In this document: positions 8,523 to 28,598 of the stretch, one piece after another | How the letters are laid out: every line of letters starts with the position of its first letter | Position numbering within the stretch: position 1 is the first letter of the stretch | NCBI GenBank assembly: GCA_017499595.2 | Contig: JAFIQS020000014.1 | Coordinates: 62,001-126,000, forward strand | From: Psilocybe cubensis | Lineage: Eukaryota | Reading direction: 5' to 3' | DNA: 64,000 bases | Translations under genes and position numbers: made by a program | The notes under the pieces: model-generated | Told to the model about the DNA's origin: nothing | Database searches by the model: none | What the model saw: the letters and a program-made list of their open reading frames with translations, nothing else

Positions 8523-8732
8523 GATTCAAATTCAAGTGTAAAGACCTTTTATTCCTGTTTGACGCAACTCATAGCTATTTTTGGTGTTTGAGATCAGTTG
8601 GGCCTTATATGCCTCCGCAAATCCACGTTCGTAAATCATATACTTCCGTTTTATCGATGGATATTGATGAAATGATAACAAAACGAGGGCCTCTTGTTCT
8701 AAATCATTTAGATATATCGAATAAGTGCTCAG

Positions 8733-10261: not shown

Positions 10262-10608
10262 GTACGTCACTGAGACATACTAGTATCGTTGGTTCCATCA
10301 GTAAATCCGGATTTTCGGAGGTAACTCAACGTATTGTCCTGCCAACCGGATGTAGCATCAAAGTGGGCTGTAGACAGTATAGCGTCATGTGTCATCGGCG
10401 GGATGCTCCGTTGAGCTCTGTAGCATTCCAACATTACTACTGCGAGCTTTGGATTTTCCTAGCTATCTCTATGTACGATTCCAGACTTAGGAGAGTTTGA
10501 TGTCCAATGTGATTGGTCTCAGTAAAGCTCTTCAATCATATCAAGCAATAAAATGTACATTTTTAAAGGCAATTAAGTGTCTATTTACAATGTAGTATCT
10601 TGACCCTA

Positions 10609-11159
10609 TTAATGATCCTGACATTCTCGTATGAGATCCTGCCCATTACTAAGAAAGTGTAGAAACAAAGTAGTTATCACTGTGACTCACCTCTACCGTT
10701 CGAATATGAATCTGGCCGTTGGCTATAATGGACATCCCTTGGGTCAATATGTGCTCGGGGCTGCCTGAGTCTGCATCCCGAAGTGTCTCCTCCTAGTTAT
10801 CTTAAGCAAGAGTATCAACTTGAAACTTGAAGAAACAGAAAACTCACGGCTCGTGCTTTGAGCCACTGGTCACCCTCGGTAATCTTGGCTTTAGCCAACG
10901 ATAGTAACCTTGGGTCCAGGGTGGTCCAGTTAATTTCGTTGAAAAGGGCCAGGATGGCCAGTATCAGCCTGTTCTCGGTCAAAAGGACCATTTTTTGGGT
11001 CTGCTCAACTAACTGAGCCATTTCCAAGTCGTATTGCTGTCTTTGAGAAGCAAGTGAGGCGGCCTCTGGGAAAGTTGTAGGATGTATTAGATCTGGGAAA
11101 GTAGGGGCCAATACTTCTGCTTCGATTCGTAAAATTTCCTCATAGCTGATGATTTGCAT
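10609..11159 (-). CDS. Small hypothetical helical protein, 3 exons (Plavaka cargo)
   Basis: MQIISYEEILRIEAE...KARA|EETLRDAD...RTVE|DLIRECQDH* with canonical GT-AG introns. Confidence 0.6.
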
Positions 11160-11403
11160 GGTGTGTGATACGCTCACTTTGTCGTAGTTGGAATTCAAGC
11201 TGAAAACAAACTTCGCGGGTATAAAAATTCTTCAGGGGTTCTGTATACGTAAAACAAAGTTCTATAGATTTTTCTAGGCTAGTCTAAGAAGATGCCTATC
11301 TAACTGAATGCGGGAGGAGCGCGCGTAGTGGTGGCAAGCAAAAGAGTGATTATTGAGAATGCGTACTACATGGCGCGGTCGTGAAAGTTGAAACTTATTG
11401 AGA

Positions 11404-13047
11404 CTATGTGGCAGTTGCAGCACTCTCACCAAAGGCGCATTTGCCGACCCAGAGTCGCCATTGCAAGGCTTGTGCGAGGGCACGTTCGCAGCGACCAATT
11501 TCACGAGGTGGGAGACCAGATAACCTTGCCCAAGCACGGTTAGAATAACACTTTTCTTGTGAAAATTTGGAGGCCAGGATGAGGGATGCCAGAAAGGCTC
11601 TACGGGGACACAGGAGGGGAGATGGCAAAGAAAGGGTGGTGGAAAGAGGAGCCGTTGAGACCTGCACATCTACGCTGGACAGAGAGTCTTGTGGATAGAT
11701 GCACGATTCAGCCAGATCTTGTGAACCAGAATCGGCAACACGGAATGTTTGCATAGAATTGTCAATGAAATTATTGATGATGTTGATCTTGCCGGAGTTC
11801 TCAAGAGCAGTAAGCTCAGCATCCATCGCCAGCTCTTCTGGGGTAGCTTTCTGAATACTGCTTTTGGGCTGAGCATAAGAGCGAATGCCGATGTTTTCCT
11901 CTTGCAAAATCTGTGGGACCTTGGGACGAATGGATTCTAGATAACATAGTGCTATCTGCAGTACGTTTTTAGATGTCCTTGAGTGGCGAAGGACTTTATA
12001 AACAAAAGACTTGAGGGGTAATATCTGATCGGATTTGGTGCCCGAGGCAAGCAAGAGGGTCGGGGAAGGGTTATGGCCGGATATGGAGGGATGACTGTTG
12101 TGTGGATGTATTGGATGTGTATGAGACGCTATGGATTGCAAATCGGAAGAGATCTGCTTGGAAGTTGGACGGGAATGAGTAGGAGGAAAAGAGCTACCCC
12201 CTACTTTGGCGGGGGGTAGGAACACGGAAGGAATATCCTGAGGGTGCCAGATCTCGGACAAGGTGCTGACAGCTTGATCTGCAATGGAATTTAAAAAATA
12301 AAGTGAGTATCTCCGGCAAGGTGGGCGCTAATTGAGGACAGGACGGACCGGCAAGCCTTGAAAAAAATTTTTGTTTAGAAGAAGAGGCGCTCTGGGAAGA
12401 ATCCTTTGGAATTTGCGCAGTGGTGGGTGGAATAGATGAGTGAGAACAACTTGATTCTGCAGAAATGAGACGGATGGAGGGGTATTCAGTAGGTAATGAT
12501 ACAGAGGCATGGCAGGTATGGATTGTGGGAGAGAGGCCAATGCTTTCCTCTTGCAAATTTTGGGAACCTTGGGACGAATGGCTTCGAGATAACATAGTGC
12601 TGTCTGCAGTATGTTTCCAGATGTCCTCAATCCTCAAAGGACTTCAGTGGGTAGAAATAGGGAGGGAATGTCTTGAGGGCGCCAGATCTCAGATAAGGTG
12701 CTGACAGCTTAATCTGCAATGGAATTGAAAAAATAAAGTGAGTATCTCCGGCAAGATGGGCGCTAATTGAGGACAGGACGGACCGACAAGACTGGAGGCG
12801 AATTTTTGTTTAGAGGAAGAGGCACTCTGGGAAGAATCCTTTGGAGTTTGGGCGGTGGTGAGCGGAAGATGAGCGAGAACGACTTGATTCTGCAGAGATG
12901 AGATGGATGGAGGGATATGCAGTAGGTGACGATGATACAGTGTGAGAAAGCGGGACTGGTGAGAAGCGGCTGTTGATATTGATCCGAGTCGTCTTTGTGT
13001 ACAACGAGGCCGGCGTGTTGGGTGATAATTTGAGTGGCAATGTGCAT
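11404..13047 (-). CDS. PHO80/Pcl-family cyclin-like protein (Plavaka cargo); 5' part partially duplicated and rearranged
   Basis: PLKSFVYKVLRHSRTSKNVLQIALCYL and SPLLCPRRAFLASLILASKFSQEKCYSNRAWARLSGLPPREIGRCERAL...LQWRLWV. Core ORF is 11404-12261; the true start is uncertain. Confidence 0.8.
12241..12930. repeat. Direct ~260-bp duplication (12241-12500 and 12676-12930) including an intron; 12540-12630 repeats 11890-11985
   Basis: Shared ...AAATAAAGTGAGTATCTCCGGCAAG...CTAATTGAGGACAGGACGGACCG; peptide ALCYLE.IRPKVP occurs twice. Confidence 0.88.
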
Positions 13048-13087
13048 TAGGGATTGAAAACTTTGTGGGTTTCCTGAGGTGGATATG

Positions 13088-16000
13088 TTATGATGACAGG
13101 GCCAAATAGAGTTCTTTGTCAAAATATTTGTTTAATCGGAACTCGGTGCTAGTGGAATGACTGTTATGTGTAGTAAGGCTTCGCCTTGCCTTCTCGCCCA
13201 TCTGAGGGACCAGATCAACCAGGGAGCGTATTTGATTCAATGGTAAAATTCCACCCATAATGGTGTTATCTGTACGTTGACTTCGTTTTAATTTATACAT
13301 GCCGGTTATTGGCTCTGGGTAAGGTCCACGGATCGCAGAACCTAGAGACTGTGGCTGATTTAAAACCTCAAAACGTTGGACGTATGCGAGAAATCTTCCA
13401 GTAATATCGGGAGACACAGTACTGGGTGTCTCTCCGACAATGCGAAAAATAATACGAATGTCGACGACAGAATGGCCTACAATATTGGCTGGTCAACGGG
13501 GTTCGGAAAAAAGTCACAAAGAAGTACTACCTTGAAGCCCGCTGCGAGGCCACTCCTCAGATTCATCCACGTTTATGATTGCTGAATCGAAGTATCCAAA
13601 AGGATGTTTGTTAGATGGCGGATATGCATTAAGTGTGACTGCCTCCAGGATCTCATGAGGGTATTGGTACGCAGTCGACTGTATACGGACCTTATGCCAT
13701 ACCTCAAGTTTTGAATACGGCAACGGACAACCGGGAGGAGAAACACGCCTGCCAGTTATCCCCTTGATGTGATAACCTCGAGAATTGGTCTGTCTCGGAT
13801 TTGATTCCTTATTGATGAGTGACACATAATCGGCAATTGCTGGTCGTAGGTCGGGAATTTTAAAAATGCTCGCAACCTCGTCGATATGCAATCTTTTGGA
13901 ACTAGCATCCCTAGATAAATGGGCAACAACGTTTTTGCTGCAAGAAAATGTTCTGTAGGGGACTGGGCCTTCCAATACGCCACGCTCATAGAGACTAGCT
14001 TTGTAGAAGTAATCCACAATGCGATTGGACTTTGCTGATTGAAAGGTTGTCATCGGCATGATTGTTGAAAGAAGTTCTGACGTTGTGTCCATCACAACCT
14101 CGCCGTTTTCCTCCCCCTCATCCCCCTCCTCCTGCTCCTCCTCATCCGTAATTGTTGCAGAGTGTATAGCCCGAAAATCAATCCTCATTTCTCGTATAGC
14201 TGTAAACAAATCGAAATTGCGCAATTTGTCACGACGATCAAGGTATCGACAAACTTGAGGCTCGTATCTTTGATTATTGCTGGAACTGGAAGGGGCTTTG
14301 ACCACCTCGATATGTGCATGCTCTGTCGTGTCTGCAGACCATTGGATTGCACATCCATTTAGTCTAATTGCGTGTACTACACTTTGCAAAAACTCGAGTT
14401 TTGGAATATAGAAATTATCGATTGGGTTGTTTTTTTTTACCTCGACGTGCTCCCGCGTCAAGGATGGCTTGTTTATTGGCATGGAAATCTTGCAGTGCCT
14501 GCTCAATTCTGAGACACATTGCCTCGGAGATTGTTTGAGATTGTGCGAGATACCGAAAGTCCATCAGAGACCGGATGGCTAAGATAAAGGGTGTACTGAC
14601 TGTGTCTGCAATGAGAGCAACAATGTATCGCTGAACGTCCCGATGTTCCCTACCGGTCACTTGTTTCAAGGAAGAAATCCCTTCCTTGAAGTGTCGGAAA
14701 CCAGTGCGGTGCTGTAAAATCGAAAATCGAAAATCCAATTCGGAACCTCCGACTGCAGCAATGCACCATTTTGCATCATGATCCCAGAACATCTTGTGCC
14801 AGTGATGAAGGGGTTCAGGCGTAAGGAATGCAGAAGGATCAGACAAGGGCCAATCTCTCCAAAACGGTAGGTGAACCCCATTGAGACGGTGCTTTTTGCT
14901 TTCTTTTAGATATGGTTCGAGATGATTAGGGGGCTTAACATTGTTGATGGCCATGATGGTGTTGATTGTATGATCTGCAGTTCGGGAAGGGTGGCGAAAG
15001 GAATCCCCAAACGTCTCGTATTGTGCCAACGTCACAGAGGATGTGGATCCTGCGACGCAAGCCGCCAGAGCAGATTCTGGAGTATCAACGATAAGGGCAG
15101 CAAGCGGTGTAAAGCAGAAACGATTATTCCCCAATGCATCTGCCATGGTGGTTCCCACCCTCGCAGTTTGTTTGACCGATTCTAGAGCAATGTCCATGCA
15201 CTGGTGATATAGCCGTGCTGCCATCATCCCATTCACAGCTTTGGAGCGATGAAGAAACTTTGGTATGGGAAGAAGAACAAAAAGAAGGAATAAATGATTT
15301 GACGATTTGTTTCTAACGTTCATCATTATGTTGGCAATGCTGATAAGGCCAGGGTAGGCGACACGGCCTCCGGTCATGTTGGAAATGTTGGTTTTATCCG
15401 TGGAAATAATAGGAGGTATAAGTGTTGCTCCTTTTGGGAGCTGGTCCTTGGGAACCTTGTTATACTGTCGTCAAACTTGGACAAAGGCATTGCTACTAAC
15501 CTGCATAAAATGCGCAATGTCACCGCTAAACCACTCAGTGTATACCCGCATCATCTCGTTGCACTTGTCGAAGAGCTTGAATGGGCTAAAGTGCATGCTA
15601 TCTTGGAGCAAGGGACTGATGAGAAGCGCCTTGATACATTCCAATCCATCGCGGTAAAAAAGCGTTAGCTGATTTTTGCTTGGTATTTCTGGTATGATCG
15701 TTTGACTCTTCCACTGCGGACCAGAGGGAAGGATCTCTGCCCGGTTGCGTAGATCTTTTGCCGACTTGTAGGACAAGTTGAGTTTTTTTATCTATACGGG
15801 ATCGACTCAGCTGAAATAAATAATGATGGGAATGTACGCTCAATTACCAGTTCAAGTTTCAAAAAATCATTCAGCATTCCTACGCTCATGTCAGAGCGAA
15901 GTAGGAACAGGGAGAGCTCCCATTCATCTTTCGAGGCAAAAGGATAGTACAAATTTTCCGCCCGCTGGGGTTCGAATTGATCCTGTTTGAGCTGATCCAT

Positions 16001-16393
16001 GAATGTAAGGCCTGTTCCAAATGCTCTTCCAGCCCCGTTATAATCCTCCTTCACGTACGGATAGTTGTATTTTGATGCCTTGGGGGGTGGGTCATCTTCC
16101 ATCTCTGATGACGCGCCAAGAAAATTGTCGATATAGTCCACTTCCATAAAATTACCAATTTCGGGAGAAGGGTCTCGAGATACGGGGGTTGCTGATCTAG
16201 ATGTAGAGCTTGAACGATTGGACTGAAAATGCATAACGTTCTCATATTGAAAACGACATGCCGATTTTGGTTGATTGATGTGATTTTGGACATCTGCATG
16301 CTTAGCGAATGGCTTGTTGCATCGAGGACAACGCACACAGATTTCCTGAGTTCTCTTGCCCTTGCCCTTTCCCATGTTGAAACAACGACTCAT
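13088..16393 (-). CDS. Plavaka transposase with N-terminal zinc finger; +1 frameshift in a homopolymer at 14430-14438
   Basis: YYPFASKDEWEL, AEILPSGPQWK, RVYTEWFSGD, GATLIPPIISTDKTNIS, TGGRVAYPGLISIANI, PEPLHHWHKMFWDHD, QVTGREHRDVQRY, IPKLEFLQS, QWSADTTEHAHI, FRLNKYFD. Confidence 0.93.
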
Positions 16394-16864: not shown

Positions 16865-19800
16865 TCAAAGTCGCCGTCGTTTAGAAGGCGGAACAGACTC
16901 TGATTCTGATGAAGAGATAAGCATTTGCGACGTAAAGGCATAATCAAACACACGTACTCGGATTTGTGCTCTCCAGCTTGACTTTCATGCCATCCAGATA
17001 CAGTTTATCCCTCACACTCGTACCAAGTTCCAGAATCTCCTTGGGAGTTCCTAGTTTGTGACGTGGTTAGTGAATATCCAAAGGCAGACACTGGTCCACC
17101 TACTCAATTGCGTTGAGGAATCCGCACAGGCATCACAGTCAATGAGAGTGATTACGGGTAACTTGAGCATCTTTGGGACCGAGGAACGAGGAAGCTGGTC
17201 GATACTGCGACATATAACCTTGTTCAATTCTCCGCTGCAGACGCCCTGAAGCTGGACAAAAAGCAAACTGGTGTCGGTACAGCAAGGGGCACCACCAATG
17301 TTGTTATGTTTGGCTTCTGCGTCGTAGGCTAGAATCATACGGGCATAGCGGCAAAGTATCATTTCATGGAACTTTTCTGTCGCCATGATATTTTGTGCAT
17401 CCTTGTTTTTGTCCGTCTCAATCATGTAGTGGATGGACTTCGTGCGATGACATAGCCACTCTAGAATAGCCAAGGCTTCGCCACGGGCAAAGATGCACGC
17501 CTTGCGCTCTTCGTCGCTCAGGCTGTTGGTATCCCACCGCATCCATGCGTCTAACTGTGCCGAAGTCTTGGTGGAGAACATCTGATCGGGATTTCGATAG
17601 GTCTCGTAGTCGAGCGCATTTGCCAAGATCATGCACACGCACAGAGCTATCAAGCTCGAGTATCCGGACTGCGTACTGTAGAATGGGACATGGTACATTT
17701 CATAAAAATCTGAGAGAAAATAGAAGAAAAGAATCAGATATCTTGTAGGAAACGGTAAAAAACCTCATACCTTCTGGGTCGCTGTCACCTTCAACCAAAA
17801 CCTTGTAGAACCAATGTATGGTTTGCTGCAGGAAAAATCGGGACGTTGAATGATTCGTATTCGTTGCCCTGTATCCAGCGGTAAAACAGTGAATGATTCC
17901 TGTCAGGGTTTCTTCGAAGGAAGTGGAGGAGTAAAAATGTCCGCCACGGCAAACCACTGAGGAGATAGAATACGCCATATGTAGAGTATTCGGTCTCATG
18001 AAGCTGTTTTTCAAAGTAGCGTCAATATAATCAAATGGGTAGGACATTCAAAAATCACATACAGTTCTGACTGGTTATCGAGAACAATCGCCTCGTAAAT
18101 CCAGTCTTGGTGGTGCGTTTCCCCGTAATCCAGCTTGTCTCCCAGAAATACACGGCGGTCAGAAGAAAGGTCAACATCCAACCGTCTGGGATACATGATA
18201 ATCCACAGCTTCAGTCCATGAAGAGGTTGGATGAAGGAACAGAAACCATTGGCATCGATATGGATATCTGAAAATGCCCCCTCTGTAGCTACGAGTCCCC
18301 ATGACATATCACCAAATGGGACGGGGGTACTATACTTCCAGCTACCAGATGTAGCCCGAAGAGCAGCCGCCTCAGTACTCAAGTCAAAAGAGTGAGCGCC
18401 TGCATGAGGTAAAGGGATGTCGAGGGCATTGAGGATCTTTCCTCTTTTGCCTTTCATCCTCGCTGCTTCCATGACCTGAGAGAGGGACCCACGCTTAATC
18501 CTCTCGATGGGGTTAGACGACATGGTCGACATATCTGTTACGGCCATTAGCATGAGACGCAGAAAGAAAAATCAAAACATCGAAGAGGAAACACACCTTG
18601 GATTGACCTGGTGCTCGTCATATCACCCATATGGCGACGTACCTGGCTGTAGAACTCGTCGGAGCAAGTTGAAATAGACTCCTCTTGAGAAGGAGACATA
18701 AGGACGACGTTCCTTTCAGAGAAAGACTCCATCAGATACATGGATTTCGTGGTGCTGCGGTCAAATACCGCAAAACATGATTCTTCGGGACGTGCTATGT
18801 GCAATGGAACTCCATCGACGTAGTCACTCTCGACCAATTCCAGAACCCTTTCAACACGATCCACGTCGGCTTGACTCTTGTTTGGAGAATAAATAAATGA
18901 CGAAAAAATCAATATCGAGAATGACTTACATGGGCAACAACGCAGAAACTTTTAAGTTGGCCACGACCGTTGTAGGTGGACCAAACTTTGGTGCCATACA
19001 CCTTCTCCGGAGTGCTGACGACATCAAGGGTGGTGTTGCTGTCGTACAGATCGACATCAATACACAGGTCGTCGTCCGAATCAAATGTGTCGGTAGCCTG
19101 CGTCGGCTTGCGTTTGGGAGGCCGCTTGGAAAGGCCCTGCCGGCCCTTCCCTTTCCCTTTCTGAGAGGAGTCAGCCGTGGTGTTTTTGCTCCTGTTTATC
19201 TGGGAAACAGGAGGAATCCTCAAAATAAGAGGAGCAGGAGGTGCGTTCTCCCCCTCCTTTTCGCCTTGGCTGTCTTCCAATGTATTCCTCTCCATGTCTG
19301 AGGAATCATTGTTTTGCTCTGGGCCTACCCCCTCTCCATCGACCGACATTCTGTCCTCCTGGACTGGTGGAACATCCCCTTGCCCCTGCTTCTCGGTCTC
19401 ATTGTCCGACGAACTGTCGTCTGGCCTTTCCTCCTCACCATCTTCTGACATTCGGTTCTCCTCGTCGGGTCGTTCTCCGTCTTGCCCCTGCTTTTCGCCC
19501 TCGTGAACTTCCGACATACGATTTGCCTCGTCAGAAGACCCTTCAGCTCCTTGTCCAGCCCCGCCGTCTCCCAAATTTTCTGGACCATTGGTATGTGGAC
19601 CATCCTCCATTTGATGGTCGACATCAGCTTGCTCCGGATCGACGTTCATCTCACAATCCCCTGCAGTTGAGGGCCCAGTATTCTCAGTCTGAAGTAGACC
19701 AGATCCAATATCATCACTCCGCGGCAAACCAGGTTGCTCGTCCGTGGGCACATCCTTGCCAGCCACCGAAGATGTGTCTTCCGGAGGCTGTATATCTGAG

Positions 19801-21428
19801 GTAGGGACCGTATTGTCCCCGTTCTCCTGTTGACCCATGCTGACATCCTTGCCAGCCACTGAAGACGTGTCTTCCGGAGGCTGTATATTTGAGGTAGGGA
19901 CCGTATTGTCCCCGTTCTCCCGTTGACCCATGCTGACCATTTCCGTCGTGTCCACTTCGTGATCATCGTCACCCTCCGCGTCTGCGTCGGACCCTTCACA
20001 GGTGGTTTTTTCACCATGATGGGAAACGGTCTGAAGTTGAGCTGTTTTAAACGGATTTAAATCATGTAATTGACGCAGACTTTGCTTATAACTTACCGTG
20101 TGGTTCAGTGCTGCGCCTTGCTAGGTTAGAATTTGCTGTAACCTCGGCGCTGCTCGTTGACGCTGGCCAATTATTAGTTTAAATTGTTATTTTGTTACAG
20201 TACGTAGAACACACATATGAAAAAGTGAAACGCGGGATCTTGTGCAATTACCCGCTCGCATTCCATCCAGCAGTCTGAGATAACAAGTTTATATAAGGCT
20301 GACTGGATGTCGCAATTTTGCGCTGCAATGATTTTCCAAATTTCCATCTCCACTTCACGCAGAACACGGGGGCGACAATTACCGAGCGCTTTTGAGGCCT
20401 AAAGGAGTGCGTTAATCCAAGTTAAACTGGGAGGATGTGGATACACCTACTTTAAGCAGCTGCTCCCGGTCACATTTCTTAGAATACCAAGATTTATTCA
20501 CAAAAAGAAGGATGGGGGATATGAAAAGGGCGACATGCAGAGGAATTTTTAAATGAGATGGCGTGACCTCTGAGAGGAACAACGCAGCATCAGGATGGCC
20601 GCTTGCACTAGGGTATGTTGAGCAGATTGTATCAATGAATAGAGGAAAGAAAACTTACTAGAGATTTGCAAGAGTAGCCGTGTCCGTTGGAATGTCTGGT
20701 AGAACGTGTTCATCGTCCTTCATACCGCGCATTCCTGACAAGATTTGGTAGTGTAGCGAGGCACAGTACACATTCCCGATTATTTTCCCCACAACACCCT
20801 TGAAGTGGTTACGCGCCAGACAGAGTAATAGCGTTGATTCCGAGGGCCCGCCCTGGGTGAAAGCGGATGACGGCGTGTCACTGATAGAAGGGGTGTTGAT
20901 GTTTCTGTGCGACTTAGAGTCGGCTCTGAGGATGCGCTTCCTGGCAGAGCAGAGCATTGCCGGCCAGTCCTTCAAGTCATCTACAAGCTACAATAATTGT
21001 TTGAAAATTAAGAATTAACATTGAGTGACTTCATGATCGCATACCTTGAACCGTGAAAATATTTCCTTAGTTCTTGTGCTGGCCTGTATTTCATTCAGGG
21101 GCACGGTCACCGGCAACGATGGTCCAAAGGCTGCTGGCCACAACGCTACGAGATCGAGTAGACGGTATGCTGCAAATAAGCTACCCGCCTGCTCCCATGT
21201 AGCCGAGGTTACGCAGGGTGTCTCTACGATGCTGTTCTGAAGGGCAGCCAAGCTTTGCCTATACTTGATGGCCGCTCGCATGCTCGATGATGAAACATCG
21301 TAATTCAAAAAGGTGAAGTCCTCATATCGTCGGAGGAAATCCACCATCCTCTACAGAAACTTGATATTAGTACCATAAATGGCAATCCAATTAAGACCTA
21401 CGCGGAGTGGGTGCGACTCTGGCAACAT
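16865..21428 (-). CDS. Large multi-exon JmjC-domain (2OG-Fe(II) oxygenase, demethylase-like) protein with long acidic linker (Plavaka cargo)
   Basis: WGLVATEGAFSDIHIDANGFCSF...GLKLWII...FMRPNTLHMAYS...CRGGHFY gives an HxD...H metal triad. Predicted start MLPESHPLR|RMVDFL and end SKRRRL*. Joining of all exons into one gene is inferred. Confidence 0.8.
19751..19936. repeat. 93-bp in-frame tandem duplication inside the JmjC gene
   Basis: MGQRENGDNTVPTSNIQPPEDTSSVAGKDVS occurs twice with few substitutions. Confidence 0.92.
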
Positions 21429-21753
21429 GTTTTCCAGAGTCTGACGAACGACCTGCGTTTCGAAGGGAAACGCCAGAATTTCTTCAGCTTGGAGTCGGGC
21501 AACGGGGGAAATCTTCTGGGCTTGCACTACAAAACTTCAACGTCTCACCCTGCATTCTATTTCTTTGGGTACTTACTTTTTTTTGTGTGTTTTTTTCTGG
21601 TGTCTCAAATTTTCAACTAGATGAATTTTAACTGAACGAAAACTATTATAGAGTGTCTAGAGTATTGTCTATGTCTATTTTATTAGAATGTATGTTAAAT
21701 CTATGGGGAGGGGTACTACGCTATGACGAACGGAAAGAAAAACAATCAAGTTG

Positions 21754-21930
21754 GAAACACGCTATTTCCGGAGCGATTCTTTAGGGTAGGTTTCCCGTCC
21801 TGAAGTCACGAGTTGGTTAAAAAAACGCCCCCTTACATCAGGCTGATGTAAGGGGGCGTTTTTTTAACCAACTCGTGACTTCAGGACGGGAAACCTACCC
21901 TAAAGAATCGCTCCGGAAATAGCGTGTTTC
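21754..21930. repeat. Perfect palindrome: 88-bp arms, 1-nt loop at 21842; imperfect extension 21718-21967
   Basis: GAAACACGCTATTTCCGG...CCTTACATCAG-G-CTGATGTAAGG...CCGGAAATAGCGTGTTTC; outer ACGCTATGACGAACGGAAAGA pairs with TCTTTCCGTTCATCATAGCGT. Confidence 0.97.
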
Positions 21931-22070
21931 TCACCATATGTTTTCTCTTTCCGTTCATCATAGCGTCTTATCATAGTAATAGGTTGTGTAGTATCTAAAA
22001 ATAAATTATCACAAGTTAAGATGATAAATTAAGTGAGATGAACATCGATTAACAGTCTTTAAGACCCACA

Positions 22071-24430
22071 ATGTCTAGTTATAAACGCAGACGACTTGAC
22101 AGCCTAGGCAACCGCACAGTGTGTACTAATCCAACCCTCCATCTAATCACTAACTTCAGGGAAATTTAATTATGATCTCAAAAAATCAGGACATTAATCC
22201 CTTCATAGACATTGAAGCAGCGGTTTCCGATGATGATGAAAGTTCGGAAGAGCTTGATTATGAAGGGGGCCAACTACGTATGTTCCAATAATTTACATAT
22301 ATTCTGCTCAATATGTACTGATGCTAATGGGTTCTGACATACAGTGAATGATAACGATGAATACTCTGAGGATGAGGAACGTGTTGCACACTCTCGGCTA
22401 TATCATGCCATGCAAAATACAGATAACGCTGATGAATGGAGCGATTTGTTGCCCATGCTTCTGCCTTCACGCATGAAAATTCGTCCTGACAATGATATAG
22501 AGCCATCTAGTTCACGAGAACTTATACAGAAATATGGCAATCCCCAACCAGGAGGACTTGGTGATAATAATTATATGCCTTCCGCGACTGATATCATGTA
22601 TGAAATAGGTTGCAAGGTACGCAAAAATAATATAAGTCTTCAGTCAGCATTTATTGATCACCTTACGAGTGATAGGTTGGACGCGAAAAGGCCGTCGCTT
22701 TCAAAATTATGCAGATGTCAACGAACCCTACATTTCCCATCATCCTTGCCCGGTCTGTCTTCGCTCAATCCTCAATTCCTGGGAGAATCTACGTCGAGGC
22801 GCCATCAATGCAACATGCGCATACGTTAGCCTGCCTCGTTAGAGAGCTTAATCCGACACATTTAGTTAGGCTATCCTCGGAGAGATGTATGGAGATCCTA
22901 TCTCATCCCCCACCCTCACGCCCTGAAGACCAATCGTGGGTCAAGGTTGCTGGAAAGCGTAAGGCTTGGACGACCTACGCAAATGCTACCGGCCTTGTGT
23001 TCACATTCCAGGGTCGGAAAAGTGTTGTTCTTATCCCCAGACCTCCGGACAACATCAAGAAATCGCACCTCGACAGGATATTCCAGGATGGATTTATTAT
23101 CACGGATTTCGACGCCATCGATCTCAAATATCTTTCCAATGTCCTCCCAACATCGTCCGAGTTGGAGCAATTTCGCGAGTGTCCATTTGTAACGACGGAG
23201 ACCTTAGCGCAAGCCTCGAAAGCCATCTCCATGACTCGACTGAAACGATATGATCGAGTCAAAATTATTGGTGGAGAATACTTAGGTCTTTTTGGAACGG
23301 TCAAGAGTGTTTCTGACGCTGAGGTGGAAGTGCACATCCCCTCCCAAGGTATAACACAAGCAGTTGCACTACACGATCTACGTGCAGCTTTCCAGATAGG
23401 CGATAGTGTTGAAGTCGTTGAAGGGGATCACAAAGATCTCCATGGATGGGTGTCAGACTTTGATGGAAGATCTGTTTGTATTATCGCCCCAGAGCACGAA
23501 CGCGAAGTAGGTGAACTGTCATTCTCTTTGTCTCAGTAGTGTTCAACACATTTTTCAGGTCATTGTGCCCATCCACACAGTCATATTCTACGTCCCCCCT
23601 GCCCATGCTACTCTTCGCCCGCGAAAGCGTCATTCGTCAAAGCTTGGAGAAAGAGACCACAACGACGTCTATATAGGTTTGAGTGTCATCGTTGTCGGGA
23701 ATAATACATTCAAGGGGTACTATGGCATCGTTAAAAGCACTACCCCCGACGGCTTTGCAGACGTTGAGCTGGAAGCTCGTAACCAGAGGGTGGAACGTAT
23801 TAAAATATCACATTTAATTATACAGTATGTGGTTTCACTTGATTCGTTGACTGTCAGGTGCTTACTGACATTGTTTCAAGCAACCGAGAACATATAAATT
23901 CCGCTCAAGACCCCGGGCCTTCTGGTGGAGCAACTCCAATGCCGTCCACAGTAGCAAGTTTTCTGTCTCCTGCATGGAATCCGTATTCAGCAATACCTGT
24001 ACACTCGGCGGTGGAAATCGCAGAACTACCCTCAACCGTCGCTCACTGGCTAGATACGAAATACGATAAGCTGAAAGGATTACGATTAAAAGTCGTAGAC
24101 AAATCCAAGGGCGACCATCAAGTGGCGATGGAACTTCTCAGCCTTACCGACGATACTGCCCACCTAGCATTACTGGGACGTACACTGACATTACCGAAAT
24201 CAGTGTTGTTTCCAATTCATCCTGTAAAAAAGGACGACTTCGTTACACCGCTTGAGGGCGATTCAATGGGGATTATATTCAGGATACGATCAATAGACAA
24301 GGATATTTGCGTTGTACATAAATATCCCGTTACTCGTATGAAACGCGGTGATACATTCCCAACTTTTCCGACAACATCTTTGATTCAAATCTTCCCCCCG
24401 TCCCGTGGTGTCAAAGTTGTAAATATGTAG
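22071..24430 (+). CDS. Divergent SPT5-like transcription elongation factor (Plavaka cargo)
   Basis: Acidic N-terminus NPFIDIEAAVSDDDE; NGN-like YEIGCK|VGREKAVAFKIM...SVFAQSSIPGRIYVEA; KOW motifs DRVKIIGGEYLGLFGTV, GDSVEVVEGDHKDLHGWV, VIVVGNNTFKGYYGIVK; residual CTR-like GGATPM...SPAWNPYS. Confidence 0.85.
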
Positions 24431-24597
24431 GGTGCAGCATTACTTGTATTTCGAACACGGACTTGTAGACATATACGGGTTTTATGTCATTCTATTTAAG
24501 TGTATTTCGGCAATCAACAGTGCTAATGGTTCGTAATGTGTTGATCGTCTTGAACTTAAGCCACCACCACCACACCAAATTGTTGCCTATCTTTATC

Positions 24598-24953
24598 ATG
24601 AACCATTCCAATAGCAACAACGCTTCGCAACCTCAAAGTCGCCGCCTCCCTAGCATACCCGAAGAGGCAGAGTTCTTCGTTTTAGGTCTATTTTCATGTT
24701 TTAATCCACCTTCCTCTAGAATCAAGGCATAGAGGCCGTTAAAAAGGCTCTTGACCAATTTCAACTCACTGAACAGAGGTGTCTAGAAGTTCAGGCAGAG
24801 CTACGTTGTTATATGGACGACATTATGCGAGCATATAAATCCAATGAAGATCTTCTGTTTGAAACCCAGCTCGAAATCGCCCGTCTACGGGTATCCCTCA
24901 TTAGTCGGGGAATACCTATTCTAATGCACCCTCAGGATAATCCGCGATCATGA
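24598..24953 (+). CDS. Small hypothetical coiled-coil protein, 2 exons (Plavaka cargo)
   Basis: MNHSNSNNASQPQSRRLPSIPEEAEFFVL|...EAVKKALDQFQLTEQRCLEVQAEL...ETQLEIARLRVSL...PRS*. Confidence 0.5.
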
Positions 24954-25224
24954 TAGGTGCAGTCTTTTCCCCTCTGAGATGTAACTTTACTTAACTCTAA
25001 GTAGGACATGGAATCTGACTATAATGTATATGTGATATATTGTAGTAGATAGGGGTACTGTTTCAGTACCTGTAATTTCTATATGGCACGATATATTTTT
25101 GACTGATGTCCGTCGCCTTAAATTTTGAAAAGAGGCTAATTTCGCATACCTCCGGATCGTAGCTTGACATAATTCACCACCCCTTATCTCTATTTCTGCA
25201 TTACAACCGTCAAACCAGCCCAAT

Positions 25225-27966
25225 ATGCCACCTAAAGGATCCAAAAAGAAAAAGGCGGTTGTCAATGCCACGGTTGAAGGTATCATCTATATATCCTCAT
25301 TACATCCGCATACTTAATGTTTTATCCATCTAGGACAAGAGGTTGAACAGGGTCCGAGCTCCGTGGCAGAAAACGAGCCACCTCAGGCTCCTGAAGCAGG
25401 TCTGTACTAGCATTTTCTTTGTTGAGATTCACTGAACTCTTTATTAAAAAGACCCCAATGGCCGTCCTATCCGAAGCACCCGTGGTCTTGGTGGAGTAAA
25501 TGCTCGGCAGGAGAAAACATCTAACATCATTTTTATTGACTTCGAGAAGGCTGGGAAGAGGAAGTCAAGGGCCGCCAATGTGGATACTAGCGCCATGCCT
25601 GAAAATGAGATGGCGCCTCCCTTGAAGAAACCTCGCAATGGGGTGAGTCTACTGTTCTAATCTTAAATTTGCTATCTTCCAAGCACGTCTAGGTTACCGT
25701 TGTGTCGCATGTAGGTCCCCCTATTCAAATGCAACCAAGGCCAACGCCTTCAGTTGCTCCTTGGGATGTCCAACAAGTCCAACCAAGCCCACGACAATCT
25801 CAGGGTGCCCCCCCTCCTGTCCAGATCCAACGTGCAGCTCAGAGAAATCAGGAGCACTCAGAGCTTGATCATGCTGTCCAAAGACCCACTGCCCCCATCC
25901 AGCGCCCCGCTGCTCCGGTACAACAGCCAGCACATCCTGTCCCGCGCCCCGTACAACATGCAGCACATCCTGTCCCGCGCCCTGTACAACACGCAGCAAA
26001 TCCTGTTCAGCGTTACGCTGCCCCTGCGGCAGAGAATTCTGTCCAATACTACGATGCCCCCGTACAACAACCAGTGCATCCTGTAACACAACATGCCCCC
26101 ATACAACAGCCAGTGCATCCAGCAGCCTATAACGCCCACCAAGAGGCTAGCATCAGCCATCAAGACGAGGAGGAGCAACAAGATTACGAAGGCATAGAGC
26201 AGGAGGAAGATGAGGAGGAGGAAGAGGGGGATAGTGACGGTGAAAGGCGATCTGAGGAAGCATCAGGGGACGAATGCATGCAAGGAATTGATGAAGAGAA
26301 TATTGGGGATGAAGAAGCTCTCCAATATGTCGACGGTGATGAAGGTTACGACGACGCGGGTCAAGATGATGAAGAGCCTGCTGCCCAGCGTTGGTTTAAC
26401 TCCACCTTTATGTCGTGTTTGCTTACCACCTATGTTTGACAGTGGTTGATGAAGTTTCCGATGATGAAGAGGAGAGGAGAGCAAGGGCATTGCTCCGCCA
26501 GCCTTCCCCCCATGTAATCATTTCTCTGCTGTATTTAATGTCTAGCTAATGTATTATTGATATAGGTTGTGGAAGTAGAGGATGTTCTTCAAGAACACCG
26601 TCGTCGTAATCGGGCGAACAAGCCACCTCGCCCTGAGGCATTGCGCAAGGCGGCTGTTTCGCAAGGAGCCGTATCCCAAGGTTTGACAAGGGAGAACAAC
26701 GAAGCATCTGACGATGATGAGGTGCTTGGTGAGGCACACATCGCTCATAAGAAGTCCAGTACTTCTTCTGCTAGGGAAGTATCCAAGCATTCAGTTGCAT
26801 CCTTTACTGGTTACTGGAAAGATGTGCTCAAAATTGCACGCAAACTGATGTGCCTGTATGTAGTAGAGGAGGTCCCCTTTCCCACTCGGGAAAATCACTT
26901 ATTAGTCGCCGATGGATGTGTGAAGATGGCAGTAACCGTGTTTGAAAGAATGAACACGGATAAAGTGTTGCCTGATAGTAAGTTCTGTCTTCTGTGATTT
27001 TAGTTAATTGGTTTACATAACTTTGCAGAGAAAAAAACGCTCCTAGACAGGAATACCGCCGTAACGGTATATTTTTAGCGTGTTCTTTTAAGGATATCGT
27101 ACTAACGTGTCTGTTCTCATTAGGCATTTGTCTACGCGTCAACCTTCCGGGGAAGACTGAAGACGATGATCAGACCCCTGGTCAAAAATGCGTATGGCCT
27201 CGAAGTCCCGTCGGAGGTCATCGCCGCGAACCCCAATATGTTTGAAAATCAGATGGGGGAGATCGAATACATCAAGGACAGGGTAGCATATTGGCTACTC
27301 AATGGTAAATACCACCGGGGTGTTGCCAAAACCCGAGTGAGTTCGCCGTCCATTTTACCTGGCTTACCACTCATTGATTTGTTTCCAGTATCACGATGTC
27401 CCATTTGGACATCCTTTTGTGAAGAAGATCTGTCTGGACTTCTTCTACCATCCTACAAAAGGGGTTGCAGTCCCCATCAAAGGTCTGGAGACAAAGACGG
27501 ATTTCTTCAAGACATCGCTTCCCCACAAAGCATTTGCGCTTGTGGCCAGTTGTGTAGTTCTGATTTCTCTCCTGCTATTGGCACTGCCTTGCTAACAAGC
27601 ATTTTGCTGTAGATCCACAACTGTCTTGAGGAGTGGAGGGATGGGATTGACCCTGCAAGAGGTGGTCCGTGTTCGGGTATTGAATTCAAGGGAGAGGAGT
27701 ACTCCCTGAGGTATGATGCCTGCATGTTGGTTGCAGCAGAGGCAGAGAAGGATACCTTGAACCAAGGTCCTCGCTTGGCTCGCTTATGTAGGGAAGTGGC
27801 TGAGGAAGGATGGTGTGTATCTTTTTTTATTCATTTCTTTCTTTGCATCATTTAGATCTCCATAATCAGTGCTATTATGAGGCCTACGAAGAACCCCCCC
27901 AACCCTTATAGGATGACTCTCCATTCTATCCCACAGGAGGAACTAGATTACGGTCCAGAAGGGTAG
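25225..27966 (+). CDS. DUF6532-like protein with basic, P/Q-rich and acidic N-terminal regions (Plavaka cargo)
   Basis: ASTFRGRLKTMIRPLVKNAYGL, PFGHPFVKKICLDFFY, LPHKAFALVASC|IHNCLEEWRDG, EFKGEEYSLRY; many short introns; internal 33-bp QHAAHPVPRPV repeats. Confidence 0.75.
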
Positions 27967-28234
27967 TTGGGTGAATGAGCGGGGCAGCTGCCGGGTGTGG
28001 ATTAGAAGATACCATATTTAGATCGTCACGTATTAATAGTTATGCATCTACTAATAGAAACATGTTTGGTCCGATCCAAACATAGATTATCTATTTTTAA
28101 AATTGCCCATTTTAGTCAAAAATGGTTCGGTTTTCAGTGTGATATTGGCACTTGCAGGAATAGCCACACAACACTATACAAATGAAAGTGGATACTATAT
28201 ATGCCTTTGTACCTATTTGCAGTGTGTTATGATG

Positions 28235-28350
28235 TGCTACAAATCTGTGGTAGCATGCTACAAATCTGTGGTAGCATGCTACAAATCTGTGGTAGCATGC
28301 TACAAATCTGTGGTAGCATGCTACAAATCTGTGGTAGTATGCTACAATTT
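28235..28350. repeat. 21-bp tandem array TGCTACAAATCTGTGGTAGCA (5 copies plus partial), subterminal in the Plavaka element
   Basis: Seen directly; unit junctions form the palindrome GTAGCATGCTAC. Confidence 0.95.
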
Positions 28351-28598
28351 GTATGTCAGTTGTATACAGAGGGGTATGGACCATGGTAAGCATGCTACAC
28401 GCCGCTACACAGCACTCGCGTTACAATACAGATCACTACAGAGTACCATGTCACGTTGGTACCAAGCTACAGGTACATCAGTGTGTGTTACCCAAATGGG
28501 ACCGTTACTATGGGCACTACAGAATTACGTATCACTACGGATCATTACCTACTTGGCCCCGGTATTGCTGATGTCTATTTGATGATGTATTCTCCTAG

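What the first reader, a model, noticed from the sequence alone, without database searches (positions are those of the whole stretch)
10268..28565. Palindrome-centred giant Plavaka element carrying a transcription/chromatin toolkit on two divergent arms
Seen: an ~18.3-kb insert with seven tightly packed genes, all pointing away from a perfect palindrome. Four read leftward (JmjC, Plavaka transposase, Pcl-type cyclin, small ORF) and three rightward (SPT5-like, coiled-coil ORF, DUF6532). Known: Plavaka transposases are fungal CMC/EnSpm-related enzymes; SPT5 is a Pol II elongation factor; JmjC domains are usually demethylases or hydroxylases; Pcl cyclins activate Pho85. Inference: this is an organised multi-gene mobile unit whose cargo may promote its own transcription or counter silencing, not random captured debris. 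I do not know a description of this architecture.
Basis: partly seen in the sequence, partly recalled or inferred. Interest (0 to 1): 0.92.

Follow-up and report, generated by a model that had tools for sequence, protein, structure and literature searches.

The report
Active multi-gene Plavaka transposon in Psilocybe
This is one complete copy of a recently active 18.3-kb jumping gene of a Psilocybe-type mushroom that carries, besides its own transposase, a histone-demethylase-like gene, a copy-like relative of the transcription factor SPT5 and a cyclin-like gene, which hints that the element may tamper with its own silencing.

Summary
The insert is a single PlavakaB-type DNA transposon at 10296-28573 (18,278 bp). 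It has CATCAG/CTGATG termini and a 2-bp TC target duplication, and it sits inside a 57-nt intron of another gene. Raw reads of another strain show the exact empty site. Depth is about 32 times the flank depth and even across the whole element. Hundreds of reads run from both ends into different flanks. Gene models at other loci of the annotated Psilocybe cubensis assembly repeat the same gene order.

Gene identities:
- JmjC: confirmed by profile and fold as KDM2/KDM7-like, with the HxD...H metal-binding residues present.
- Plavaka transposase plus DUF6830: strong match.
- SPT5-like (NGN plus KOW domains): confirmed.
- PHO80-type cyclin and DUF6532: weakly supported.

The palindrome is perfect over 177 bp and lies between the divergently oriented JmjC and SPT5-like genes.

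That the cargo counters silencing is inference. Copies are about 99% identical, so selection cannot be measured, and no RNA data were found. TET-carrying Plavaka elements are published. This JmjC/SPT5/cyclin cargo did not appear in my literature searches. I class it as a new variant of a known kind.

The parts
10296..28573 (.). Complete PlavakaB-type DNA transposon, 18,278 bp
   Evidence: Empty-site joint 10293->28574 in X13 (8 reads). Loose ends at 10296 (330 reads) and at 28573/28574 (232+165 reads) with low consensus agreement, meaning many different flanks. Depth is about 541 inside versus 16-17.5 on the flanks.
10294..10295 (.). Left copy of the 2-bp target site duplication (TC); the right copy is at 28574-28575
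   Evidence: The joint has 2 letters that fit both sides. Sequence seen.
10296..10325 (+). Left terminal inverted repeat (begins CATCAG). The left 400 bp holds 5 TGTAG and 0 CTACA.
28544..28573 (-). Right terminal inverted repeat (ends CTGATG). The right 400 bp holds 11 CTACA and 0 TGTAG.
28235..28347 (.). Subterminal 21-bp tandem array, 5.4 units. Each unit is itself a small inverted repeat. Unit number varies between copies.
   Evidence: Joints that skip 42 nt (164 reads) and 63 nt (29 reads).
10815..11231 (-). Small ORF of unknown function. One annotated model at another locus (P0166) extends coding down to 10691.
   Evidence: No Pfam family.
11404..12940 (-). PHO80/Pcl-type cyclin-like gene. 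The cyclin box lies in ORF 11404-12327. The 5' part is tandemly duplicated (12214-12504 versus 12649-12940, 87%).
   Evidence: Pfam Cyclin/Cyclin_N at E 3e-3, below cut-off. Atlas: 15 hits at 0.91-0.93 to PF08613 clusters. 5 of 15 listed gene models are named 'G1/S-specific cyclin pas1' by the source. Duplication seen.
13088..16375 (-). Plavaka transposase gene: N-terminal zinc-finger-like region, PF18759, DUF6830 and a C-terminal tail. In this copy the frame is broken at the T9 run around 14430.
   Evidence: Pfam E 2.7e-64, 1.1e-16 and 1.1e-45. 485 of 514 X13 reads lack one T at 14430. P0001 reads through this point. The heuristic model stops there.
16959..21545 (-). JmjC-domain protein gene, about 1,350-1,400 aa in about 10 exons. 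It has an N-terminal all-alpha domain, an acidic low-complexity region with a basic stretch that looks like a nuclear localisation signal (my reading), and a C-terminal KDM2/7-like JmjC catalytic core.
   Evidence: tblastn of P0001, P0004, P0158 and P0159. Profile versus PDB: ceKDM7A at 1.9e-6. AF2 pLDDT 87.3. Foldseek top hits PHF2/PHF8/KDM7/KDM2A at E about 5e-12.
21718..21966 (.). Palindrome between the two divergent genes: 88-nt perfect arms plus a central G at 21842, extending to 124-nt arms at 93%.
   Evidence: Present in most copies: 71 reads carry a loose end at 21841 in a bin of mean depth about 400.
22071..24430 (+). SPT5-like gene: acidic N-terminus, NGN domain and KOW domains. About 600-680 aa in 6 exons with an open frame.
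   Evidence: Pfam NGN 25.6 bits, KOW 32, KOW2_Spt5 51. PDB Spt5 at 1.3e-10. P0153 and P0172 map here. Heuristic spliced ORF.
24598..24953 (+). Short ORF(s) that look helical or coiled-coil by eye; no family found
25225..27855 (+). DUF6532-like gene with a basic N-terminus and a Pro/Gln-rich 33-nt repeat region
   Evidence: Two collinear sub-threshold DUF6532 hits: profile positions 55-101 at E 7e-5 and 158-188 at E 0.03. Repeats.
9073..10261 (+). Upstream exon(s) of the interrupted host gene. The intron donor GTACGT is at 10262.
   Evidence: Frame check made on the sequence.
28599..31240 (+). Downstream exons of the interrupted host gene, with a PHD finger near its end. Without the element the intron would be 57 nt, phase 0.

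Best explanation
The stretch 10296-28573 is one copy of an autonomous cut-and-paste DNA transposon of the PlavakaB lineage. This lineage belongs to the CMCT clade, the RAG1/Transib/EnSpm-related DDE transposases. The best protein matches are to Psilocybe cubensis.

Shown:
- It has CATCAG...CTGATG termini, imperfect TIRs and inverted subterminal CTACA/TGTAG motifs.
- It makes a 2-bp TSD (TC).
- It inserted into a 57-nt intron of another gene.
- It is absent from that site in another strain.
- It is present in roughly 13-32 near-identical full-length copies at many sites.
- It always moves as a whole, with six further genes arranged in two arms that diverge from a 249-bp palindrome.

The transposase presumably binds the termini and subterminal repeats and excises and reinserts the whole 18.3 kb.

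Inferred (about 0.4 probability): the accessory genes serve the element.
- The JmjC protein has a KDM2/KDM7-like fold, the Fe-binding HxD...H residues and a lysine that I take to be the 2OG-binding one. It would remove repressive histone lysine methylation from the element's own chromatin, as Epe1 or IBM1 do for host genes.
- The SPT5 paralogue would engage RNA polymerase II to keep the long divergent units transcribed, or would interfere with transcription-coupled silencing.
- The cyclin-like protein would recruit a Pho85-type kinase.
- The palindrome lies 105 nt from the SPT5-like ATG and about 170-290 nt from the start of the JmjC gene. It is the likely shared bidirectional control region.
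For: Ends, mobility and copy number (run X13):
- The empty-site joint 10293->28574 skips 18,280 bases (8 reads).
- There are 330 loose-end reads at 10296 and 232+165 at 28573/28574, with consensus agreement only 0.38-0.45.
- Inner depth is 541 +/- 50 in all 26 inner bins, against 16-17.5 on the flanks. That is 32-fold, or 13-16-fold against a 35-41x genome expectation.
- 59,410 of 68,751 laid reads are at least 99% alike.
- Contigs of X11 and X12 continue from 28574 into two other flanks.

Match to published PlavakaB features: termini and TSD fit 5'-CATCA..TGATG-3' with a 2-3 bp TSD (PMC12730594 section 18).

Recurrence of gene order:
- The P0001 cluster has 39 members. The 15 listed lie on 8 contigs of 2.6-4.2 Mb.
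- Fused gene models P0160, P0162 and P0166 map collinearly to 11407/10691-21428, covering cyclin, transposase and JmjC.
- JR316_0004105/4106 (SPT5-like) are followed by 4107 (JmjC N-terminus) and 4109 (transposase).
- P0172 ('Transcription elongation factor SPT5') lies two accessions from JmjC model P0002.

JmjC:
- 925 representative relatives at E<=1e-3.
- H is conserved in 126/140, D in 126/140 and K in 128/140.
- H, D, G, G, K, H are invariant in 32 long members.
- Profile hits to KDM7/PHF2/KDM2A/PHF8 and fold hits at E about 5e-12 with TMt about 0.6.

SPT5-like: with an open spliced frame.

Sign that copies are silencing targets: 14 of 17 listed C>T/G>A differences between copies lie at CpG, against an 18.7% background (p 2.4e-8).
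Against: - No RNA holder was listed, so neither transcription nor its divergence from the palindrome is shown.
- Copies are about 99% identical, so cargo selection cannot be measured within the family.
- This particular copy has a frameshift in the transposase at a T9 homopolymer. It may be a real defect or an assembly error.
- The cyclin-like gene scores below Pfam cut-offs, has no PDB sequence match and carries an internal tandem duplication, as captured fragments often do.
- DUF6532 is below cut-off.
- Linkage of this JmjC family to Plavaka outside P. cubensis is not shown. 0 of 32 long relatives carry a Plavaka domain. The 9 metagenome loci (1.9-6.6 kb) show only the JmjC part.
- A 52-62% identical paralogue in the same species (P0004) has lost H, D and K of the active site. 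Catalysis is therefore not universally kept in this family.
- The CpG count rests on the 40 of 121 variant rows that the tool displayed.
Confidence: 0.85

Rival explanations
1. The accessory genes are passive passengers. On this view they are host gene copies or fragments captured once by a master copy and amplified with it in a recent burst, with no role in the element's life cycle.
For: Copies are about 99% alike, so co-amplification alone explains the linkage. The cyclin-like gene has weak scores and an internal tandem duplication. Paralogue P0004 has lost the JmjC catalytic residues. The published view of TET cargo is 'frequent but passive transmission' between transposons (PMC12730594, section 4).
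Against: The JmjC family is large (925 representatives). It is spread over several Agaricales genera and keeps H, D, K and H nearly invariant. The SPT5-like gene keeps an open frame across 5 introns and has several basidiomycete look-alike clusters. Six accessory genes packed without visible decay is more than typical transduplicate debris.
Confidence: 0.3
2. The palindrome is not a control element. It would instead be a nested foldback or MITE-like insertion, or a rearrangement scar, that happened to land between the two arms in the master copy.
For: It is flanked by CT on both sides (21716-21717 and 21967-21968; sequence), which could be a 2-bp TSD. Its centre varies between copies: 71 loose-end reads at 21841, and joints 21841->21993 and 21942->21841.
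Against: Depth over the palindrome bin is lower (about 400), not higher, than the rest of the element. It is therefore not an independent high-copy repeat at 90% likeness or above. No second copy exists in the 64-kb window. A 2-bp match is expected by chance 1 time in 16.
Confidence: 0.25
3. The 18.3 kb is a composite of two or more independent transposons, for example a left Plavaka and a separate right element, or nested insertions that only look like one unit.
For: The hexamers CATCAG and CTGATG also meet exactly at the palindrome centre (21836-21848). Each arm is therefore formally bounded by CATCAG...CTGATG.
Against: Depth is even across both arms. The only heavily supported loose ends lie at 10296 and 28573/4; the next inside the element is 71 reads at 21841. 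The empty site removes exactly the whole 18,278 bp plus one TC. The hexamers occur 9 and 10 times in the element, so they are common. The palindrome shares only one 8-mer with the terminal 800 bp.
Confidence: 0.03
4. It is a segmental duplication or a host gene cluster, not a transposon.
For: None beyond the presence of host-like gene families (SPT5, cyclin, JmjC).
Against: It has a TIR, a TSD and a precise empty site. There are dozens of copies with different flanks. It carries a strong Plavaka transposase.
Confidence: 0.02

Closest known systems
PlavakaB DNA transposons, including the TET/JBP-carrying families of Agaricus bisporus and Gymnopus confluens (Kojima 2025, PMC12730594; sections 4, 18, 23, 34 and term searches read)
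   Same: Same transposase family (PF18759). Same termini, 5'-CATCA..TGATG-3'. Same 2-3 bp TSD. Same host order (Agaricales). Same idea of a transposon carrying a 2OG/Fe dioxygenase that could act on repressive epigenetic marks.
   Different: The dioxygenase here is a JmjC (KDM2/7-like) protein with an HxD motif, not the PE-type TET with HxE. The element also carries an SPT5 paralogue, a cyclin-like gene and a DUF6532 gene around a palindrome. The words JmjC, Spt5 and cyclin occur 0 times in that paper's main text. Its supplementary tables and sequence data could not be seen.
En/Spm (CACTA) elements of plants, CMC superfamily (recalled)
   Same: Related DDE transposase clade. Subterminal short repeats in inverted orientation at the two ends. 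More than one element-encoded protein. Large size.
   Different: Termini are CATCA, not CACTA. The TSD is 2 bp rather than 3 bp. There are separate genes in two divergent arms rather than alternative splicing of one transcript. The accessory genes are chromatin and transcription types.
Transposon-encoded epigenetic modifiers: VANC of VANDAL (MuDR) elements, and SET-domain genes of HarbingerS and Phytophthora MuDR (as summarised in PMC12730594 section 4)
   Same: A DNA transposon that carries a protein acting on its own epigenetic state.
   Different: Different transposon superfamilies, hosts and protein families. No function has been tested here.
Host anti-silencing JmjC proteins: Epe1 of fission yeast and IBM1 of Arabidopsis (seen only as titles and abstracts in the listing; their mechanisms are recalled)
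   Same: JmjC proteins that oppose the spread of H3K9-methyl heterochromatin. This is the working model proposed for the element's JmjC protein.
   Different: Those are host genes. No relationship beyond the JmjC fold was tested, and Epe1 and IBM1 were not compared directly.
Starships and other cargo-mobilising elements of fungi (listing: title and abstract only)
   Same: Large fungal mobile elements that faithfully carry protein-coding cargo.
   Different: As recalled, Starships are far larger, occur in ascomycetes and are moved by a tyrosine-recombinase 'captain'. Here the only mobility gene found is a DDE Plavaka transposase, and the element is 18 kb.

Membership tests
Plavaka / PlavakaB transposon | Plavaka transposase domain (PF18759) | tested here: met
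   E 2.7e-64 (profile positions 103-325) plus 1.1e-16 (positions 1-99) on adjacent ORFs, together with DUF6830 at 1.1e-45.
Plavaka / PlavakaB transposon | Termini 5'-CATCA..TGATG-3' (PMC12730594) | tested here: met
   CATCAG at 10296 and CTGATG ending at 28573. These ends are fixed by the empty-site joint and the loose ends.
Plavaka / PlavakaB transposon | 2- or 3-bp target site duplication | tested here: met
   TC on both sides. The empty allele has one TC: the joint skips 18,280 = 18,278 + 2.
Plavaka / PlavakaB transposon | [quoted passage not shown] | not tested
   No reference PlavakaA/B sequences were available because the supplements are closed. The motifs were not mapped.
EnSpm/CACTA | CACTA-type termini and a 3-bp TSD | tested here: not met
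Termini are CATCAG and the TSD is 2 bp.
JmjC 2OG/Fe(II) oxygenase (KDM2/KDM7-like) | Double-stranded beta-helix JmjC fold | tested here: met
   AF2 model with pLDDT 87.3 and pTM 0.91. All listed Foldseek hits down to rank 30 are PHF2/PHF8/KDM7/KDM2A, at E 5e-12 to 5e-10 and TMt 0.35-0.65.
JmjC 2OG/Fe(II) oxygenase (KDM2/KDM7-like) | HxD...H metal-binding residues and a 2OG-binding Lys | tested here: met
   The motifs HID and NTLH are present in the window protein. H is conserved in 126/140, D in 126/140 and K in 128/140. All are invariant in 32 long relatives. They align to the corresponding region of ceKDM7A. Assigning the Lys to 2OG binding is from recall.
JmjC 2OG/Fe(II) oxygenase (KDM2/KDM7-like) | Pfam JmjC model at gathering score | tested here: not met
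   0 families for the window ORFs, P0001's JmjC part and P0004. Only 3 of 35 and 2 of 32 relatives give weak JmjC hits. This is a divergent branch, recognised by profile and fold only.
JmjC 2OG/Fe(II) oxygenase (KDM2/KDM7-like) | Histone lysine demethylase activity | not testable with these tools
   Needs biochemistry.
TET/JBP dioxygenase, PE type (the cargo of published TET+ Plavaka) | HxE hallmark and closest structures TET/CMD1/NgTET (PMC12730594 section 23) | tested here: not met
   The motif is HID. The best structures are JmjC lysine demethylases, and no TET appears among the listed hits.
SPT5 (transcription elongation factor) paralogue | NGN domain followed by KOW domains | tested here: met
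   Spt5-NGN 25.6 bits (cut-off 22.4), KOW 32 (22.3), KOW2_Spt5 51.1 (28.9), KOW5 31 (27). PDB Spt5 at 1.3e-10. The same domains appear in annotated model P0172.
SPT5 (transcription elongation factor) paralogue | Full SPT5 architecture (acidic N-terminus, NGN, 5 or more KOW domains, C-terminal repeat region), i.e. the host orthologue | tested here: inconclusive
   Spt5_N scores only 17.6 bits, below cut-off. The model is about 600-680 aa, against 900-1,120 aa for solved Spt5 chains. The C-terminal repeats were not looked for. It lies inside a transposon in many copies, so it is a paralogue and not the host gene.
PHO80/Pcl-type cyclin | Cyclin box recognised by PF08613 or PF00134 | tested here: inconclusive
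   18.1 and 17.6 bits against cut-offs of 21 and 23. No hit in spliced models at E 0.01. No PDB sequence hit. Atlas shows 15 hits at 0.91-0.93 to PF08613 clusters. The source name is 'G1/S-specific cyclin pas1'.
DUF6532 | PF20149 at gathering score | tested here: inconclusive
   23.2 bits against a cut-off of 24, plus a second collinear hit at E 0.03 in the next exon.

The most novel reading that the evidence does not exclude
A fungal DNA transposon carries its own chromatin and transcription module. The module comprises an active KDM2/7-like JmjC demethylase, an SPT5 paralogue and a cyclin. All are expressed divergently from a palindromic control region. Together they keep the element's own copies transcribed and mobile despite CpG methylation and heterochromatin. 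This would be a histone-level counterpart of the TET and VANC anti-silencing systems. It would also be the source of a large, so far unexplained expansion of JmjC and short SPT5-like genes in Agaricales.
Probability: 0.3. Interest if true: 0.85.

Novelty: new variant of a known kind. Interest (0 to 1): 0.64.

Why it matters
Transposon-encoded counter-silencing is known from only a few systems: VANC, SET-domain genes and TET/JBP. If the inference holds, this element adds a histone-demethylase-type enzyme and a polymerase-II elongation-factor paralogue to that list.

The element seems to be active now. There are dozens of about 99% identical copies, and the insertion is present in one strain and absent in another. 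The idea is therefore directly testable in a culturable mushroom.

It would also explain why automated annotation of Psilocybe cubensis lists many 'SPT5', 'cyclin pas1' and 'JmjC' genes. These are transposon genes, often fused into chimeric models, which matters for anyone counting gene families in these genomes.

Tried and rejected
- No whole genome is held for the window, so copies could not be extracted.
- The look-up of sequencing runs listed no RNA holder. Expression is therefore untested.
- The search for homologous proteins with the SPT5-like ORF found nothing among longer proteins and one P. cubensis protein among near lengths.
With A3 it gave 9 short metagenome contigs holding only the JmjC C-terminal part. 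tblastn found no Plavaka, SPT5-like, cyclin or DUF6532 there, and their other ORFs had no Pfam family.
- The idea that the 'JmjC' gene is really the PE-type TET of published Plavaka elements was rejected.
- The idea that the palindrome is built from terminal motifs was rejected. Only one 8-mer is shared, and the CATCAG/CTGATG hexamers are common in the element.
- The N-terminal 334 aa of the JmjC protein fold confidently as an all-alpha domain (pLDDT 87). No informative match was found: Foldseek best E 1.4 and VIA best Z 4.2.
- Pfam found nothing for the host gene except a PHD finger, and nothing for 7 other long ORFs of the window.
- Rfam gave no hit in 9000-30000.
- Earlier scan notes held nothing on this genome or on look-alike sequences. 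The 'Plavaka' notes all concern Naegleria.
- Literature searches: 'JmjC + transposon-encoded + fungi' gave 0 papers. 'Spt5 + transposase + Agaricomycetes' gave 0. 'Kyakuja + JmjC' gave 0. 'DUF6532' gave 1 paper, a domain list only. 'JmjC/DNA transposon/cargo/Basidiomycota' and 'transposon/JmjC/anti-silencing/encodes' gave no paper on a transposon-encoded JmjC among those listed.
- Iyer et al. 2014, which named Plavaka, is not held and could bear on cargo.
- My splice heuristic failed for the short ORF and the DUF6532 gene.

Full report
**What is there.** The window is fungal, with short GT..AG introns. Its element-encoded proteins match Psilocybe cubensis records at 97-99% identity. Between 10.3 and 28.6 kb lies a block whose ORFs all read away from a palindrome at 21718-21966.

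The CACTG at 10268 lies in the host intron. The true termini are CATCAG at 10296 and CTGATG ending at 28573. Of the terminal positions, 12 of the first 15 and 19 of the first 30 agree between the two ends (my count). Both ends are flanked by TC.

The left 400 bp holds 5 TGTAG and no CTACA. The right 400 bp holds 11 CTACA and no TGTAG. The right side also includes a 21-bp, 5.4-unit tandem array. This is the subterminal-repeat layout of CACTA-like elements.

The element interrupts a gene. The exon ending at 10261 (...MFAG) has a GTACGT donor at 10262. The acceptor ...CCTAG ends at 28598, and the frame continues at 28599 (VMDFSEAE...) to a PHD finger. Without the element the intron would be 57 nt, phase 0.

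**Mobility and copy number.** I laid raw WGS reads of a run with a related species label (X13) and contigs of three other runs on 9400-29399.

- In X13 the flanks have depth 17.5 and 16.0.
- All 26 inner bins have depth 401-613 (mean 541, sd 50). That is about 32 times the flank depth, or 13-16 times a 35-41x genome-wide expectation.
- The depth is even across both arms, so most copies are full length.
- 59,410 of 68,751 laid reads are at least 99% alike.
- Eight reads join 10293 to 28574, skipping 18,280 bases, with two letters shared. This is the empty site with one TC. The insertion is therefore absent at this locus in that strain, and the ends and 2-bp TSD are fixed exactly.
- 330 reads run out of the element at 10296, and 232+165 at 28573/28574. 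Consensus agreement of the outside letters is only 0.38-0.45, so there are many different flanks.
- X11 and X12 contigs continue from 28574 into two further, different flanks.
- Minor deletion derivatives exist: 14738->16113 (27 reads), 10408->15684 (7 reads), and 15993->16123 (19 reads, also in X10).

None of this fits several independent insertions.

**Independent check from annotated proteins.** The 90% cluster of P0001 has 39 members. The 15 listed lie on 8 contigs of 2.6-4.2 Mb.

- Chimeric gene models map collinearly onto the window. P0160 and P0162 cover 11407-21428 (cyclin, transposase, JmjC). P0166 covers 10691-21428. P0161, P0165 and P0167 run from 11407 into the transposase.
- On one contig, locus tags JR316_0004105 and 4106 (SPT5-like C- and N-terminal parts) are followed by 4107 (JmjC N-terminus) and 4109 (transposase). 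This is exactly the window's order and divergent orientation, seen from the other strand.
- On another contig, a model named 'Transcription elongation factor SPT5' (P0172) lies two accessions from JmjC model P0002.

Gene set and order thus recur at unrelated loci.

**The genes.**

*Transposase.* PF18759 scores E 2.7e-64 and DUF6830 scores 1e-45. In this copy the two ORFs overlap out of frame at a T9 run. 485 of 514 X13 reads have one T fewer there, and P0001 reads through. Most copies are therefore intact. This copy is either defective or mis-assembled.

*'JmjC'.* Pfam and a PDB sequence search see nothing in the protein itself. A full HMMER search with its 561-aa C-terminal part finds 925 representatives at E<=1e-3.

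- The motif W.L..T.GA.H..HID..G..T..V..G.K.W...P is conserved (H 126/140, D 126/140, K 128/140). A second motif, PNT.H.V.T...GGHFY, is also conserved.
- A profile of 35 members hits the JmjC cores of ceKDM7A (1.9e-6), PHF2, KDM2A and PHF8.
- An AlphaFold model (pLDDT 87.3, pTM 0.91) matches PHF2, PHF8, KDM7 and KDM2A at E about 5e-12.

Named relatives come from Psilocybe, Agrocybe, Gymnopilus, Panaeolus, Tephrocybe, Marasmius and Arthromyces. 4 of 32 long relatives carry a Ulp1 protease domain and none carries a Plavaka domain. A 52-62% identical paralogue in the same species (P0004) has lost H, D and K. The N-terminal 334 aa fold as a confident all-alpha domain without a recognisable relative.

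*SPT5-like.* The NGN, KOW, KOW2 and KOW5 domains score above Pfam cut-offs. Solved Spt5 chains match at 1.3e-10. Annotated model P0172 has the same domains. A heuristic splice model gives an open frame of about 680 aa from the ATG at 22071. Atlas look-alikes are several basidiomycete clusters of short KOW1/NGN proteins (a lead only).

*Cyclin.* The evidence is only weak: Pfam at 3e-3 below cut-off, Atlas at 0.93 to PF08613 clusters and the source's name 'cyclin pas1'. There is no PDB sequence hit. The gene also has an 87% internal tandem duplication.

*DUF6532.* There are two collinear sub-threshold hits.

*Small ORF and short coiled-coil-like ORF.* Neither has a family.

**The palindrome.** It has 88-nt perfect arms around one G, extending to 124-nt arms at 93%. 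It lies 105 nt upstream of the SPT5-like ATG and about 170-290 nt upstream of the JmjC coding start. It therefore fills the divergent intergenic region.

Short reads confirm it in most copies. However, 71 reads at 21841 and several joints show variant centres, also in X11 and X12. It is not a separate high-copy repeat: its depth dips to about 400. It shares no motifs with the termini beyond a hexamer that is common in the element.

**How it most likely works.**

Shown: this is a cut-and-paste PlavakaB transposon that moves as one 18.3-kb unit. It amplified recently and is polymorphic between strains.

Also seen: copy-to-copy C>T and G>A differences sit at CpG in 14 of the 17 listed cases, against an 18.7% background (p 2.4e-8; only the displayed rows were counted). 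This fits 5mC deamination, meaning the copies are methylation targets.

Inferred, at about 0.4 probability:
- The JmjC protein removes repressive histone methylation on the element.
- The SPT5 paralogue supports or shields Pol II transcription of the long arms.
- The cyclin recruits a Pho85-type kinase.
- The palindrome is the shared promoter region.

The main rival is that the cargo merely hitch-hikes (0.3).

**Comparison and novelty.** PlavakaB termini, the TSD and a dioxygenase cargo (TET) are published (PMC12730594). Every defining feature I could test was met. Clade placement was not tested. The JmjC, SPT5-like and cyclin cargo and the palindrome-centred two-arm layout were not found in that paper's main text. 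They were also not found in six further full-text searches. Iyer et al. 2014 and all supplements could not be read. I therefore rate it a new variant of a known kind. It is of real interest to transposon and chromatin biologists, chiefly because the element looks active and the hypothesis is testable.

Noticed in passing
window 9073-10261 and 28599-31240 (+): The gene interrupted by the element has no Pfam family except a C-terminal PHD finger (E 2e-5). In X13 its flanks carry fixed differences from the window and a 10-nt deletion at 9516. Loose ends at 9526 and 9561 (71 and 62 reads) exceed the local depth of about 17, so a short piece there is repeated elsewhere.
   Followed up: partly
window 14422-14431: There is a T9 homopolymer in the window, against T8 in 485 of 514 X13 reads. 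It splits the transposase frame between the Plavaka and DUF6830 parts in this copy only. It is either a real frameshift or a long-read homopolymer error.
   Followed up: partly
window 10296-28573: Differences between copies are transition-rich (X13: C>T 35, G>A 26). 14 of the 17 listed C>T/G>A sites lie at CpG, against an 18.7% background (p 2.4e-8). This suggests deamination of methylated cytosines in the copies. Only the 40 displayed of 121 variant rows were examined.
   Followed up: partly
window 21836-21993: The palindrome centre reads CATCAG-G-CTGATG, the same hexamers as the element's termini. It varies between copies. 71 X13 reads and an X11 contig replace the left side at 21841 with other letters. 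Joints 21841->21993 and 21942/21913/21874->21841 also occur. The cause is unknown; it could be nested insertions or hairpin-related rearrangement.
   Followed up: partly
window 11887-12940: There is a tandem duplication inside the cyclin-like gene: 12214-12504 versus 12649-12940 (87%) and 11887-11979 versus 12536-12627 (87%). X13 also shows a 108-nt 'goes back' joint at 11527->11420 (18 reads).
   Followed up: no
P0004 / P0173 / P0174 (same species, other loci): A 52-62% identical paralogue of the JmjC protein has R, S and N in place of the H, D and K of the HxD...GxK motif. It is a probably inactive sister lineage.
   Followed up: partly
alignment A4 (32 long relatives of the JmjC protein): 4 of 32 relatives carry a Ulp1-type protease domain (Peptidase_C48, best E 2.6e-14), for example a Marasmius protein of 2,073 aa. 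Such proteases are often found in transposons of other lineages (recalled).
   Followed up: no
L001:3561-4724(-), L005:2275-3435(-), L008:2434-3597(-): In three soil-type metagenome contigs, the JmjC-like gene is followed on the opposite strand by a conserved 387-388-aa ORF with no Pfam family. It is a possible partner gene of another element family.
   Followed up: partly
runs X10, X11, X12 on window 10296-28573: Three runs labelled as other organisms hold pieces of the element at about 100% identity in 26, 27 and 20 of 30 bins, but nothing of the flanks. Low-coverage presence of the same fungus would explain this. No inference on horizontal transfer is justified.
   Followed up: no
window 47917-48854 and 54572-55500: There is a 938-bp inverted repeat pair at 85% identity. 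Further repeat pairs lie at 1528-1917/32964-33335 (78%) and 60016-60564/63179-63708 (69%). Other repeats or mobile elements seem to be present in the window.
   Followed up: no
window 8361-8524: There are arrays of a 10-nt unit (TGCACTTCCC-like) just upstream of the interrupted gene.
   Followed up: no
P. cubensis gene models P0001, P0158, P0160-P0163, P0165-P0167: Public annotation fuses the element's JmjC, transposase and cyclin genes into chimeric proteins of up to 2,670 aa. It names some of them 'G1/S-specific cyclin pas1' or 'Transcription elongation factor SPT5'. Gene-family counts for this species are inflated by transposon genes.
   Followed up: yes
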